From contig NW_021828159.1 in NCBI RefSeq assembly GCF_006345805.1, forward strand, positions 1 through 8,958: 8,958 nucleotides of DNA, read 5' to 3'. Source of the stretch: Octopus sinensis. Taxonomy: Eukaryota. Both the position numbers and the translations under genes were made by a program. Under the pieces are notes generated by a model. The model was given only the letters and a program-made list of their open reading frames with translations, was not told the DNA's origin and ran no database searches. Of this stretch, positions 1 through 5,813 are shown one piece after another (positions within the stretch are counted from its first letter, which is position 1; each line of letters opens with the position of its first letter).

Positions 1-318
1 GGACTTATTCTTTGCAAGCCCAGTACTTATTCTATCGTTCTCTTTTGCCGAACCGCTAATGTAACGGGGACATAAACACACCAACATCGGTTGTCAAGCA
101 ATGCTAGGGGGACAAACACAGACACACAAACACATACACATACACACACACATATATATATGTTTCTTTCAGTTTCCGTCTACCAAATCCACTCACAAGG
201 CATTGGTCGGCCCGGGGCTATAGCAGAAGACACTTGCCCAAGATGCCACGCAGTGGGACTGAACCCGGAACCATGTGACTGGGAGGCAAGCTTCTTACCA
301 CACAGCCACTCCTGCACC
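1..318 (-). mobile_element. tRNA-derived SINE, family A, copy 1 (3' end runs off the window)
   Basis: Reverse complement aligns with 5399-5730. It has the tRNA-like head (GGTGCAGGAGTGGCTGTGTGG, B box GGTTCAGTCC), an internal TA/TG microsatellite at about 112-162 and the shared body. Confidence 0.9.
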
Positions 319-1294: not shown

Positions 1295-1301
1295 TGTATA
1301 T

Positions 1302-1715
1302 ATATATTATATTAAATTAGAGATAAAACCACTATTAGGCAAATCAAACACTGAAATCATAAGCCAATACATAGAAATAAAATACATTAAAAAATATTTA
1401 AAAAAAATATATAAAAAATATAAAATATAAAATATAAAAATCTAATTAAAATATTTAAATTAAAGTTAAAATTAAAAAAATTTATTTAAATTAATAATTT
1501 AAACTATAAATTATATATTATATATATTTTTATTATTATTTTATTTAATTATTTATTTTTATTTTTATATTTTTATTTTTTTTAATTGGTATTTTATATT
1601 TTATATTTTATATCTTTTATATATTTTTTTAATTAATTTTATTTCTATGTATTGGCTTATGATTTTCAGTGTTTGATTTGCCTAAGTGGTTTTATCTTAA
1701 TTTAATATAATATAT
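1302..1715. repeat. Long AT-rich inverted repeat (foldback)
   Basis: 1302-1383 (…GATAAAACCACTATTAGGCAAATCAAACACTGAAATCATAAGCCAATACATAGAAATAAAAT) is the reverse complement of 1636-1715 apart from a few small indels. The interior is A-rich then T-rich. Confidence 0.9.
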
Positions 1716-1738
1716 TATACTATAAAATTAGATTTAAT

Positions 1739-1740
<2 letters not shown>

Positions 1741-1787
<47 letters not shown>

Positions 1788-1805
1788 TATATAGTAATAT
1801 ATATA
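1741..1805. repeat. (TA)n microsatellite
   Basis: Read directly from the sequence. Confidence 0.95.
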
Positions 1806-1994
1806 GGGAGAACTCGCAAAAAAAAAGCAAAAGGCGAAGACGGGTTGTGTAGACAAACAGATATATTAGTTTAACGCTCGGGAAGTGAAAAAGTCTTTAA
1901 CGTTTCAAGCCTACGCTCTTCCACAGAAAGGAACACAGAAAGAAACAAGGAGAGAAAATAATGAATGTGTAGTGACTAGAGATGTATCATGGCG
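1806..1994 (-). mobile_element. Short interspersed repeat, family P, copy 1 (Penelope-like pLTR remnant with hammerhead-like motif)
   Basis: Homologous to 3290-3490 (TATTAGTTTAACGCTCGGGAAGTGA...GCCTACGCTCTTC.ACAGAAAGGAACACAGAAA). Flanked by (TA)n and carries a hammerhead-like motif on the - strand. The Penelope assignment is inference. Confidence 0.65.
1895..1930 (-). ncRNA. Minimal type I hammerhead-like ribozyme, variant core
   Basis: - strand reads CUUU CUGUGGA A GAGC-GUAG-GCUU GAA ACGU U^ AAAG. Stem I is CUUU/AAAG, stem II has 4 bp and stem III is the palindrome ACGU. The core has U instead of A6. Confidence 0.55.
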
Positions 1995-2027
1995 ATATAT
2001 ATATGTATATATATATATATATATATA

Positions 2028-2386
2028 TGTTAATAAAATAGAACATATGCATATATTATAAACAATATATGTACGTACGACCTACCTCTACATGTACATA
2101 TACACGCATATATGTGTACAGGACACCAAAAAGACGTCGAACACATAGAGAGACGAAACACATAGACACAAACAGGAACAAGACAAGCAAAAAAAGGAGA
2201 GATACAGGACAATAAGCACAACGAAGAATCCCCTTCTTCAGTCGCTAAGATTTCATCTACTAAACGTTTCGAAGGATAAAAGCGAGACGTATACTTCGAA
2301 GAAAAATTCCTTCCCGCGAAAAGCAAATCAATTAAAATTCTGAGATCTTTCGCAGAGGGGTAAAAAAAAGCAAGACGGTAACGACA
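2028..2386. repeat. Direct repeat, copy 1
   Basis: Aligns end to end with 2896-3244. Confidence 0.95.
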
Positions 2387-2895
2387 GTACAAACATATAA
2401 ACAGTAAAAAAATATATATATAAACAGTGGAAAAATAATATATAACAGTGAGAGACAGGACAAGGAGAACAAGATAAGAAGGGCTGTTAACGCCAGACGA
2501 AAAAAGTATTGCAAACGCTGGATTATCGTGGAAGGAGAGAGGGAAAATTTGTCGACCAGAGCCTTACAAGGCGGGCGAGAAAAGACAGGATAGCAGTTAC
2601 GACGGAAGTATCGTCGCAGATGGATGACGGGAATGGGGGAGGAGGAGCAAGAGGAAGAGAGAGAAGAAGGGGAATGGTGCGAGGAGACCAGGAAGAATGG
2701 TGAAAGGGAGAGAGAGAATGAAGAATGAGAGAGAGAGAGAAGAGGACAAATTAAGTGAGGGAAAAAAAGACGAAAAAGGGAAGGGGGGGGAGAGAAAGAA
2801 AGAAAGATCAGAGTCGCGTGAGAGTTAATTATCAAGGCTAACTTGATAAACAGAACAATCTTACTTATAGGGTGCGTGCGTTTAGTCGTATAATA

Positions 2896-3244
2896 TGTTA
2901 ATAAAATAGAATATATGCATATATAAACATATATGTACGTACCTACTCTACATGTACAATACACCATATAGTGTACAGTGACACCAAAAAGACGTCGAAC
3001 ACATAGAGAGACGAAACACATAGACACAAACCAAGGAACAGACAAGCAAAAAAAGGAGAGATACAGGACAATAAGCACAACGAAAAATCCCCTTCTTCAG
3101 TCGCTAAATTTCATCTACTAACGTTCGAAGGATAAAAGCGAGACGTATAATTCGAAGAAAAATTCCTTCCCGCGAAAAGCAAATCAATTAAAATTCTGAG
3201 ATCTTTCGCAGAGGGGTAAAAAAAAAAGCAAGACGGTAACGACA
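2896..3244. repeat. Direct repeat, copy 2
   Basis: Aligns end to end with 2028-2386; differences are mostly small indels. Confidence 0.95.
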
Positions 3245-3289
3245 TATATATTATATATATTATATAATATATATATATGTATGTATATA

Positions 3290-3490
3290 GTTGGAATTTA
3301 CAAAAAAACAAAACAAAAAAAACAAACGAACCAAAAGACGGATGTGTAAACAACAAATAGATGTATTAGTTTAACGCTCGGGAAGTGAGAAAGTATTTTA
3401 CATTTCGAGCCTACGCTCTTCAACAGAAAGGAACACAGAAATATACAGAGAAAGAAAATTTTAAAATATGGTTTCGTGGCTAGCAACCAA
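3290..3490 (-). mobile_element. Short interspersed repeat, family P, copy 2
   Basis: Homologous to 1806-1994; the core at 3361-3440 matches 1861-1940 without gaps. Confidence 0.65.
3395..3430 (-). ncRNA. Minimal type I hammerhead-like ribozyme, variant core
   Basis: - strand reads CUUU CUGUUGA A GAGC-GUAG-GCUC GAA AUGU A^ AAAU. Stem II is perfect and the triplet is GUA. Stem III ACGU has become AUGU, consistent with CpG decay. Confidence 0.5.
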
Positions 3491-3661
3491 GCAATCAATC
3501 ATATGTGTTTACACGTCAGTATTAGGAATTTTCAAACAGCACTTTTCGGACCATACATGCTAATGTATATGTTTTCATTCATGTGCGTTAACTACACCAT
3601 TAGAGCACTTTAGCTCTTATTTTTAGCTATGTACATGTTTCCTAATACCCTAGTCACATTT

Positions 3662-4074
3662 TCTCATTTCTCATTTACTTGTTTCAGTCATTTGACTGTG
3701 GCCATGCTGGAGCACCGCCTTTTAGTCGAGCAAATCGACCCCAGGACTTATTCTTTGTAAGCCTAGTACTTATTCTATCGGTCTCTTTTGCCGAACCGCT
3801 AAGTTACGGGGACGTAAGCACACCAGCATCGGTTGTCAAGCGATGTTGGGGGGACAAACACAACACACACACATACACATATATATATATACATATATAT
3901 ACATATATACGACGGGCTTCTTTCAGTTTCCGTCTACCAAATCCACTCACAAGTCTTTGGTTGGCCCGAGGCTATAGTAGAAGACAATTTGCCCAAGGTG
4001 CCACGCAGTGGGACTGAACCCCGGAACCATGTGGTTCGTTAGCAAGCTACTTACCACACAGCCACTCCTACGCC
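3662..4074 (-). mobile_element. tRNA-derived SINE, family A, full-length copy
   Basis: Head GGCGTAGGAGTGGCTGTGTGG at 4074 through to an (AAATGAG)n tail. Probable target-site duplication CATTT at 3657-3661 and 4074-4078. Confidence 0.92.
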
Positions 4075-4234
4075 ATTTAGTAACATTTGTCATTCTTCTT
4101 TTTGGTGAAACATTGCCAACTGCTGTTTAAATTAATTTTATATATACACATTGGCGAATCGTTAAATCAACCAATAAGTTGGATGAGGAAACCATAAATA
4201 ATAATGGCGAAGCGAATCGGAGAAGAGCCAAACA

Positions 4235-4303
4235 ATCGAGTGATCTTAACTGATGAGGCAACGGAAACTGCCGAAACTGATGTCAGTATTAGGAATTCTC
4301 GAT
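4235..4303 (+). ncRNA. Type I hammerhead ribozyme (predicted cleavage GUA^ after 4288)
   Basis: Core CUGAUGA at 4250-4256 and GAAA at 4273-4276. Stem II is GGCA 4257-4260 / UGCC 4269-4272. Stem III is ACUGA-UG-UCAGU 4276-4287, with A4288 as H17. Stem I is UCUUAA 4244-4249 / UUAGGA 4289-4294, continued past an internal loop by AUCGAG 4235-4240 / CUCGAU 4298-4303. Confidence 0.9.
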
Positions 4304-4503
4304 CGGCACCGTTCGGACGATTATCATACCTGTTAGCATAAATGTTTTCATTCATGTGCGTTAACTACAGCATTAGAGCTGTTTAGCTCTTATTTCTAGC
4401 AATGTGGGTGTTTCCAAGACCCTAGTCATACTTGGTGACAATTATAATTGTCCTTTTTGATGAAATATTGCAACTGTTGTCTATATTAATTTTATATATA
4501 CAG

Positions 4504-4660
4504 TGTGTGGTTGTGTGTTAAGTAGCTTGCTAACCAGCCACATGGTTCCGGGTTCAGTCCCACTGCGTGGCACCTTCGGCAAGTGTCTTCTGCTATAACC
4601 TCGGGCCGACCAAAGCCTTGTTAGTGGATTTGGTAGACGGAAACTGAAAGAAGCCCGTTG

Positions 4661-4697
<37 letters not shown>

Positions 4698-4916
4698 GTG
4701 TGTGTCTTTGTGTGTCTGTGTTTGTCCCCCTTGCATTGCTTAACAACCGATGCTGGTGTGTTTAAGTCCCCGTCACTTAACGGTTCGGCAAAAGAGACTG
4801 ATAGAATAAATACTGGGCTTACAAAGAATAAGTCCCGGGGTCGATTTGCTCGACTAAAGGCGGTGCTCCAGCATGGCCGAAGTCAAATGACTGAAACAAG
4901 TAAAAGAGTAAAAGAG
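4504..4916 (+). mobile_element. tRNA-derived SINE, family A, near full-length copy
   Basis: B box GGTTCAGTCC at 4551-4560, internal microsatellite at about 4661-4720 and a (TAAAAGAG)2 tail. Aligns with 5399-5813. Confidence 0.92.
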
Positions 4917-5336: not shown

Positions 5337-5398
5337 GGCGGTGCCCCAGCATGGCCACAGCTCGTGAGCTGAAACTAGCTAAAATAAAATAAAAATAA
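5337..5398 (+). mobile_element. 5'-truncated retroposon 3' end sharing the family A tail
   Basis: GGCGGTGCCCCAGCATGGCCACAGCTCgtGAGCTGAAACTAG followed by (TAAAA)n; parallels 5755-5797. Confidence 0.75.
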
Positions 5399-5562
5399 GC
5401 ACAGGAGTGGCTGTGTGGTAAGTAGCTTGTTTACCAACCACATGGTTCCGGGTTCAGTCCCACTGCTTGACACCTTGGGCAAGTGTCTTCTACTATAGCC
5501 TCGGGCCGACCAAAGCCTTGTGAGTGGATTTGGTAGACGGAAACTGAAAGAAGCCCGTCGTA

Positions 5563-5593
<31 letters not shown>

Positions 5594-5813
5594 GTGTGTG
5601 TTTGTGTGTCTGTGTTTGTCCCCCTAGCATTGCTTGACAACAGATGCTGGTGTGTTTGCGTCCCCGTCACTTAGTGGTTCGGCAAAAGAGACCGATAGAA
5701 TAAGTACTGGGCTTACAAAAGAATAAGTCCCGGGGACGATTTGCTCGACTAAAAGGCGGTGCTCCAGCATGGCCGCAGTCAAATGACTGAAACAAGTAAA
5801 AGTGTAAAAGAGT
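5399..5813 (+). mobile_element. tRNA-derived SINE, family A, full-length copy
   Basis: A box TGGCTGTGTGG at 5408-5418 and B box GGTTCAGTCC at 5451-5460. Also has CORE-like ACCTTGGGCAAGT, an internal microsatellite at about 5561-5618, a 3' hairpin at 5776-5789 and a short repeat tail. Confidence 0.93.

What the first reader, a model, noticed from the sequence alone, without database searches (positions are those of the whole stretch)
3513..4502. Hidden ~350-nt tandem repeat carrying the ribozyme: candidate non-LTR retrozyme / circular RNA family
Seen in sequence: removing the SINE at 3662-4074 reveals about 1.6 head-to-tail units of a 350-nt non-coding monomer, with equivalent cleavage sites at 3521 and 4288. 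The array starts inside stem III, a few nt before the first site. Established: non-LTR retrozymes are short tandem hammerhead repeats of a few hundred nt that give monomer and circular RNAs and are thought to use Penelope-like RT. Inference: this locus is a partial multimer copied from such an RNA. The two units have diverged clearly, so the insertion is old, yet the hammerhead is intact. I cannot tell whether this family has been described.
Basis: partly seen in the sequence, partly recalled or inferred. Interest (0 to 1): 0.85.

Follow-up and report, generated by a model that had tools for sequence, protein, structure and literature searches.

The report
Hammerhead-bearing parasite of Penelope retrotransposons
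This is one decayed copy of an old, dispersed family of 350-base non-coding repeats that carry a predicted self-cutting hammerhead RNA and were likely copied around the genome by a Penelope-type retrotransposon enzyme; the kind is known from other animals, but two sister families here share a 20-base signal that may be how the enzyme picks them.

Summary
Observation confirmed. Removing a SINE (3662-4073, CATTT target duplication) leaves about 1.6 head-to-tail units of a 350-nt non-coding monomer, 3513-4502, with one complete type I hammerhead (core 4250, cut after 4288). The upstream 'site' at 3521 has no catalytic core, so this locus cannot release a monomer. The unit is not a local duplication: the genome holds an estimated several thousand fragments, about 82% identical to each other, with no young copies seen. 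They are dispersed partial tandems (8 of 105 loci with two hammerheads in line, none with three) with Penelope-type insertion marks: inverted 5' arms (39 of 105), two fixed 3' ends, variable 5' ends, microsatellite targets (66 of 105 against 15%). No copy examined joins a Penelope ORF, and no partner element was found. Verdict: a new member of the animal non-LTR retrozymes (non-autonomous Penelope-like elements); circular RNA and self-cleavage are untested. Extra result: at least two other hammerhead families in this genome, otherwise dissimilar, share its 20-nt motif (4382-4401) just upstream of a common 3' end, a candidate recognition signal for the mobilising reverse transcriptase.

The parts
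3513..3661 (+). 5'-truncated upstream unit, first part: last 9 nt of a hammerhead (end of helix III and cut triplet, no catalytic core), then monomer positions 1-140
   Evidence: alignments
3662..4073 (-). later SINE-like insertion interrupting the first unit; CATTT target duplication at 3657-3661 and 4074-4078; not part of the element
   Evidence: read depth thousands of times that of the element
4079..4288 (+). rest of the first unit (monomer positions 141-350), ending at the hammerhead cut site
4235..4303 (+). type I hammerhead motif: helix I 4244-4249/4289-4294 (distal 4235-4240/4298-4303), core 4250-4256, helix II 4257-4272, GAAA 4273-4276, near-palindromic helix III 4276-4287, predicted cleavage after 4288
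   Evidence: sequence
4289..4502 (+). second, partial unit (positions 1-214), ending at the family's main 3' end (TA-rich); abutted by another SINE copy from 4503
4382..4401 (+). 20-nt motif shared with other hammerhead-bearing short repeat families of this genome; candidate recognition signal for the mobilising protein (inferred)
3609..3628 (+). same 20-nt motif in the upstream unit, two mismatches

Best explanation
The locus is a dead copy of an old, dispersed, non-coding 350-nt repeat family with a type I hammerhead motif, likely a non-LTR retrozyme mobilised in trans by the reverse transcriptase-endonuclease of a Penelope-like element. Shown: multicopy dispersal, partial-tandem layout, hammerhead structure with compensatory changes, inverted 5' arms, two fixed 3' ends, microsatellite neighbours, no ORF. 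Inferred: master loci gave multimeric RNA; the hammerhead (probably as a dimer through its palindromic helix III) cut it to monomers that were probably circularised; a Penelope-type protein nicked TA/TG microsatellites, started reverse transcription inside the RNA about 150 or 210 nt downstream of the cut site, ran across the cut junction and stopped at random after 0.2-2 units; priming on both strands of the break gave the head-to-head arms. Circle versus uncleaved linear multimer as template is about 55:45. The likeliest partner is a Neptune-type element, because the Neptune copies inspected also end in (TA)n, but none was linked by sequence.
For: Dispersal: 1231 first-look candidates, 40 of 40 scored match; 49 and 70 core-pattern hits, controls 0; 975 exact hits of an internal 20-mer. 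Structure: 85.7% of cells paired in 124 copies, 50 cells with two-sided change against 22.7 +/- 4.1 shuffled; helix III centre varies in length and letters yet stays self-complementary in 32 of 53 copies with intact arms, 43 with G-U allowed. Penelope-type marks: inverted piece upstream in 39 of 105 loci, downstream in 0; 197 of 294 segments end at positions 140-159 or 190-219 while 5' ends are spread; microsatellite at the 3' end in 66 of 105 against 205 of 1355 random flank positions; no target duplication above control (5 of 184 against 9). These match the Penelope signatures in 10.1101/2021.04.23.441226 and the two internal RT start sites and two-strand priming in PMC11167929. Units and arms of one locus share the subfamily in 71 of 73 pairs. 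Neptune and Poseidon elements are plentiful in the genome.
Against: No RNA evidence and no cleavage assay. No long arrays: 8 of 105 loci have two hammerheads in line, none three, and 60 loci picked with dimer queries reach at most 622 nt, so the rolling-circle step is not shown. The window's hammerhead is predicted to prefer an inactive fold (-21.1 against -16.9 kcal/mol). The count of helix pairs with two-sided change is not above shuffles (9 against 7.7, 147 of 500) and the covariation mostly reflects one subfamily change. No autonomous partner shares the unit, its hammerhead or the 20-nt motif among the Penelope loci tested. The two 3' ends are about 60 nt apart, longer than the 30-40 nt tail in print. 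Circular-fold z-scores are modest (-0.75 to -2.39, 9 units).
Confidence: 0.8

Rival explanations
1. The copies are pseudo-LTR fragments of an autonomous Penelope-like element whose ORF-bearing copies I did not sample or which has decayed; the 350-nt tandem is an internally deleted derivative that spread without any circular RNA, the hammerhead riding along.
For: All insertion marks are Penelope marks. 10.64898/2026.07.22.740005 derives retrozymes from pseudo-LTRs. PMC11167929 found hammerhead cleavage dispensable for insertion in vitro. Only top-scoring Penelope families were sampled.
Against: Copies that run past position 214 continue into positions 215-350 and the next hammerhead, not an ORF. 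Of 105 loci, 9 have Penelope protein hits in their flanks, 2 on the same strand upstream, neither continuous with the unit. The majority sequence has no similarity to the Penelope proteins tested (best E 1.7). The hammerhead lacks the extra nucleotide and minimal helix III of metazoan pseudo-LTR hammerheads (PMC4209133).
Confidence: 0.14
2. A SINE-like element mobilised by a LINE (for example RTE or CR1), the tandem layout being occasional read-through.
For: LINE-driven SINEs are very abundant here; 5' truncation and simple-repeat 3' ends also occur with LINEs (own knowledge).
Against: Two internal 3' end points within a repeating unit, head-to-head arms that both end at those points, and lack of target duplications fit Penelope-type and not LINE-type copying; no tRNA gene in the window.
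Confidence: 0.04
3. A local tandem duplication or satellite with a chance hammerhead-like motif.
For: Rfam score is below the curated threshold.
Against: Copies on most large contigs with unrelated flanks; helices conserved with compensatory changes; no long arrays.
Confidence: 0.02

Closest known systems
Animal non-LTR retrozymes (Cervera and de la Pena 2020, PMC7229834), especially the 350-390 bp mussel repeats
   Same: Non-coding unit of about 350 nt, GC 32-40%, type I hammerhead, head-to-tail copies, thousands of loci, Penelope-like elements in the same genome.
   Different: Only partial tandems up to about two units were found, not long multimers; helix III is a 12- or 14-nt palindrome rather than a 1-2 bp stem (PMC4209133); family looks extinct; expression as circles untested here.
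Non-LTR retrozymes as non-autonomous Penelope-like elements (Li, Clavereau and Pollet, bioRxiv 10.64898/2026.07.22.740005)
   Same: Same reading; most of their families also have few units and many monomers.
   Different: They link retrozymes to Penelope elements by co-occurrence and pseudo-LTR homology in vertebrates; here the link is by insertion marks, and no homologous pseudo-LTR was found. By their criterion (two complete hammerheads in tandem) this locus is inactive.
Pseudo-LTRs of endonuclease-bearing Penelope-like elements (Neptune, Poseidon; 10.1101/2021.04.23.441226, PMC11167929, PMC4209133)
   Same: Partial tandems, inverted 5'-truncated arm, microsatellite bias, two 3' end points downstream of a type I hammerhead.
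   Different: No RT/GIY-YIG ORF; hammerhead is canonical with a long helix III, not the minimal pseudo-LTR form; sequence unrelated to the Neptune and Poseidon ends sampled.

Membership tests
non-LTR retrozyme | type I hammerhead with conserved core and three helices | tested here: met
   core intact in 95 of 125 cores (selected by core similarity)
non-LTR retrozyme | short unit (150-450 bp), GC below 45% | tested here: met
   350 nt; GC 0.32-0.40 in 9 units
non-LTR retrozyme | non-coding, no RT of its own | tested here: met
   no long ORF in the unit; blastx against sampled Penelope proteins best E 1.7
non-LTR retrozyme | tandem copies, dimers to multimers, at many loci | tested here: met
   partial tandems common; two hammerheads in line at 8 of 105 loci, none with three; met at the low end only
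non-LTR retrozyme | active locus: two consecutive complete hammerheads (Li et al.) | tested here: not met
   this locus has one; applies to the locus, not the family
non-LTR retrozyme | Penelope-like elements in the same genome | tested here: met
non-LTR retrozyme | highly self-paired monomer circle | tested here: inconclusive
   z -0.75 to -2.39 on 9 decayed units, 40 shuffles each
non-LTR retrozyme | self-cleavage | not testable with these tools
   needs in vitro transcription
non-LTR retrozyme | expressed as monomeric linear and circular RNA | not testable with these tools
   no usable RNA run; contigs only
non-LTR retrozyme | no LTR, primer binding site or polypurine tract | not tested
   no LTR layout seen in the maps; PBS and PPT not searched
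autonomous Penelope-like element | RT plus GIY-YIG ORF between the repeats | tested here: not met
Penelope-type insertion signature | inverted 5'-truncated copy upstream | tested here: met
   39 of 105 upstream, 0 downstream; 20 of 65 motif-selected loci carry the motif on both strands
Penelope-type insertion signature | microsatellite insertion bias | tested here: met
   66 of 105 against 205 of 1355
Penelope-type insertion signature | two alternative 3' ends (optional tail) | tested here: met
   73 and 124 of 294 segments; spacing about 60 nt, longer than the 30-40 nt in print

The most novel reading that the evidence does not exclude
This genome holds a clan of at least three, perhaps five, retrozyme families with different hammerheads and otherwise dissimilar units (350, about 476 and about 435 nt) that all keep one 20-nt motif 40-80 nt upstream of a shared 3' end. 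The motif is the cis signal by which a Penelope-type RT recognises its parasites and sets the start of reverse transcription, which gives the first handle on how animal retrozymes are mobilised.
Probability: 0.4. Interest if true: 0.65.

Novelty: new member of a known kind. Interest (0 to 1): 0.4.

Why it matters
Retrozymes are thought to borrow Penelope enzymes, but the link rests on co-occurrence and some homology. This family shows the full Penelope insertion footprint on a hammerhead repeat with no ORF, which supports that model from mechanism. The motif shared with two sister families is a concrete, testable candidate for the recognition signal. I found no description of such families from cephalopods in the searches run, but Repbase and Dfam were not available and the supplement of PMC7229834 could not be read. 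The locus itself is an inactive fossil.

Tried and rejected
Partner search, all negative. Monomer against 20 GIY-YIG loci, 20 longer mostly Neptune loci (one 22-nt AT-rich hit), 27 + 27 Poseidon loci; hammerhead model over 65 Penelope loci, best E 0.75; 20-nt motif over 67 Penelope loci, 6 hits at 3-4 mismatches that by their flanks lie in other repeats. A Poseidon ORF facing the element in L051, L094 and L098 is one duplicated chance junction; that family has its own unrelated minimal hammerhead. L010, L191 and L273 have Neptune fragments nearby but not in one continuous unit. Pile-up of 5' ends at the cut site as a trace of in vivo cleavage: 7 of 63 unbiased ends lie at positions 2-6 and the stop rate is mildly raised there, but numbers are small, some ends are ambiguous and wider bins show no spike; not claimed. 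Hard ceiling at two units: rejected, the random stop rate of about 0.05-0.15 per 10 nt explains the rarity of longer copies. Conserved hairpin at the shared motif: 65 of 85 against 226 of 450 with shuffled upstream; weak. Expression: no RNA holder listed; the four runs laid were contigs and uninformative. Core pattern in metagenome contigs: 0. One genome pattern was mis-specified and found nothing. Rfam does not detect the sister-family hammerheads at E 0.01 in 6 loci. A genome-wide count with the RNA model was not possible, so copy number is an estimate.

Full report
1. Observation. 3513-3661 aligns with 4280-4436 at 123 of 146 columns and 4077-4148 with 4432-4502. The intervening SINE-like copy spans 3662-4073 between two CATTT words, so the SINE-free monomer is 350 nt and the array is about 1.6 units. 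One complete type I hammerhead motif lies at 4235-4303; a model built from family copies finds no second one in the window (next E 0.25; the window copy is in the training set). The upstream unit starts at 3513 inside helix III and lacks the core, so the locus cannot cut out a monomer. Rfam alone would miss it (23.4 bits against 48.5).

2. Family. The unit is dispersed: 1231 first-look candidates with 40 of 40 scored matching, 49 and 70 hits of hammerhead core patterns with 0 in reversed controls, and 975 exact hits of an internal 20-mer. Of 90 loci sampled from the first 100 listed 20-mer hits, 69 were assigned to this family (one proved to be a sister family on inspection and four pairs are the same place sampled twice). 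Since 11 of 91 hammerhead-selected copies keep the 20-mer exactly, I estimate several thousand fragments; 16 of 63 unbiased arms reach back to the hammerhead core. Random pairs are 82% identical and 1 of 1153 exceeds 95%; tandem units of one locus are 84% identical (37 pairs). The family looks old and extinct. At least two subfamilies exist.

3. Ribozyme. In 124 aligned copies 85.7% of cells pair; two helix I pairs change on both sides in 16 and 20 copies, and two-sided cells exceed all 500 shuffles, while the number of such pairs does not (9 against 7.7). Copies are related and helix II was part of the search pattern, so this is support, not proof. Helix III is a palindrome of 12 or 14 nt whose centre takes several forms and stays self-complementary in 32 of 53 copies with intact arms; GUA is the cut triplet in 78 of 124. 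PMC4209133 (passages read) describes palindromic helix III as the mark of hammerheads that work as dimers, but with 1-2 bp stems in animals; this one is longer. The window copy is predicted to prefer an inactive fold by about 4 kcal/mol.

4. Insertion anatomy. At 105 hammerhead loci (identical cores removed; a few are segmental duplicates) 39 have an inverted piece upstream and none downstream; 8 have two hammerheads in line and none three. Sixty loci picked with natural dimer queries reach at most 622 nt in one direction. Among 294 segments, 73 end at positions 140-159 and 124 at 190-219, while 5' ends are spread round the unit. A TA, TG or CA microsatellite follows the 3' end in 66 of 105 loci against 205 of 1355 random flank positions. 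Target duplications are not above control. These are the marks described for Penelope-like elements: inverted 5'-truncated arm, microsatellite bias, optional tail (10.1101/2021.04.23.441226, passages), and two internal RT start sites with priming on both strands (PMC11167929, first half of the text read).

5. No ORF, no partner. The genome holds many GIY-YIG elements, including young Neptune-type ORFs of 781 aa with RT and GIY-YIG domains whose inspected copy ends in (TA)n, and an older Poseidon-type family with its own minimal hammerhead. Clade names are my reading of the motifs. None shares the unit or its hammerhead. Nine of 105 family loci have Penelope fragments in their flanks (1.5 kb for 65 loci, about 4 kb for 40); the two on the same strand upstream are not continuous with the unit. 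Only top-scoring families were sampled, so a partner may exist.

6. Mechanism. Most likely master loci gave multimeric RNA, cut by the hammerhead and probably circularised as shown for mussel, coral and axolotl retrozymes (PMC7229834, passages and sections 14 and 17 read; supplement not readable). A Penelope-type protein then nicked microsatellites and copied the RNA from inside the unit. Of 30 unbiased arms that reach position 10, 22 run on past the cut site, so the template was a ligated circle or an uncleaved multimer; the data cannot tell which, because copying stops at random every 100-200 nt. Cleavage, circles and the partner are inferred; dispersal and insertion marks are shown.

7. Shared motif. 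The 20-mer at 4382-4401 also occurs in other short repeats: family B (unit about 476 nt, 331 candidates) and family C (about 435 nt, 277 candidates), each with its own type I hammerhead motif and palindromic helix III, plus single examples of two more (L273, L270). All 30 of 30 B loci and 30 of 30 C loci carry the motif within 4 mismatches (the queries contained it), none next to a Penelope ORF by position. Outside the motif, representative copies align no better than the best of 50 shuffles in most comparisons, with two marginal exceptions. In all three families one cluster of microsatellite junctions lies 40-79 nt from the motif start and a second is family-specific. The motif is only modestly more conserved than the rest of each unit (0.90 against 0.87 in A; 0.92 against 0.89 and 0.87 in B and C). 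It may be a recognition signal for the mobilising protein or a remnant of common descent.

8. Comparison and verdict. The element works like, and on the tested features belongs to, the animal non-LTR retrozymes, which 10.64898/2026.07.22.740005 (parts 1-3 of 5 read, through the discussion; supplements closed) interprets as non-autonomous Penelope-like elements. It is not an autonomous element and not a local duplication. Searches for cephalopod or octopus retrozymes, hammerheads or non-autonomous Penelope elements listed no description of these families; repeat databases were not available. Two earlier scan findings in other genomes report similar Penelope-type tandem repeats without ribozymes (unchecked). 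New member of a known kind; interest 0.4, mainly for the insertion footprint and the shared motif.

Noticed in passing
L212, L208, L381-L410 (family B); L267, L411-L440 (family C): Two further non-coding partial-tandem families (about 476 and 435 nt) with their own type I hammerhead motifs, inverted arms and microsatellite ends, sharing the 20-nt motif of window 4382-4401.
   Followed up: partly
L273 (around 3360-3700) and L270 (around 3380-3560): Single examples of two more hammerhead-bearing units with the same motif; in L273 the unit runs directly into a 5'-truncated Neptune RT fragment on the same strand, possibly a template switch.
   Followed up: partly
window 1756-1959 and 3244-3459, minus strand (about 1895-1930 and 3395-3430): Two copies of another common repeat with a degenerate hammerhead-like core, next to (TA)n; resembles the ends of Neptune copies. 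Fold not above shuffles.
   Followed up: partly
window 2020-2421 and 2889-3278: A 91% identical direct repeat of about 400 nt beside the repeats above; the minus strand holds hammerhead core words in reversed (type II-like) order, with no folding support.
   Followed up: partly
window 1296-1720: AT-rich inverted repeat of about 425 nt, 81% self-complementary, of the head-to-head kind.
   Followed up: no
window 1-314, 339-546, 3662-4073, 4503-4916, about 5396-5812: Five copies or fragments of one very abundant SINE-like family with a central (TA)/(CA) tract.
   Followed up: partly
L161-L164 and other one search hits: Young Neptune-type Penelope family with many intact 781-aa open frames; the 3' end of L161 carries a hammerhead-like motif with an altered core and ends in (TA)n.
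   Followed up: partly
L105-L130, just downstream of the Poseidon-type ORF: The 3' untranslated region holds a tRNA-like segment (A- and B-box-like words by eye) and an (AAT)n tract before the minimal hammerhead; ARAGORN calls no tRNA in 15 of 15 loci.
   Followed up: partly
L227, L292: Head-to-head insertions in which both arms begin within about 5 nt of the hammerhead cut site, as expected if both were copied from cleaved RNA; too few to claim.
   Followed up: partly
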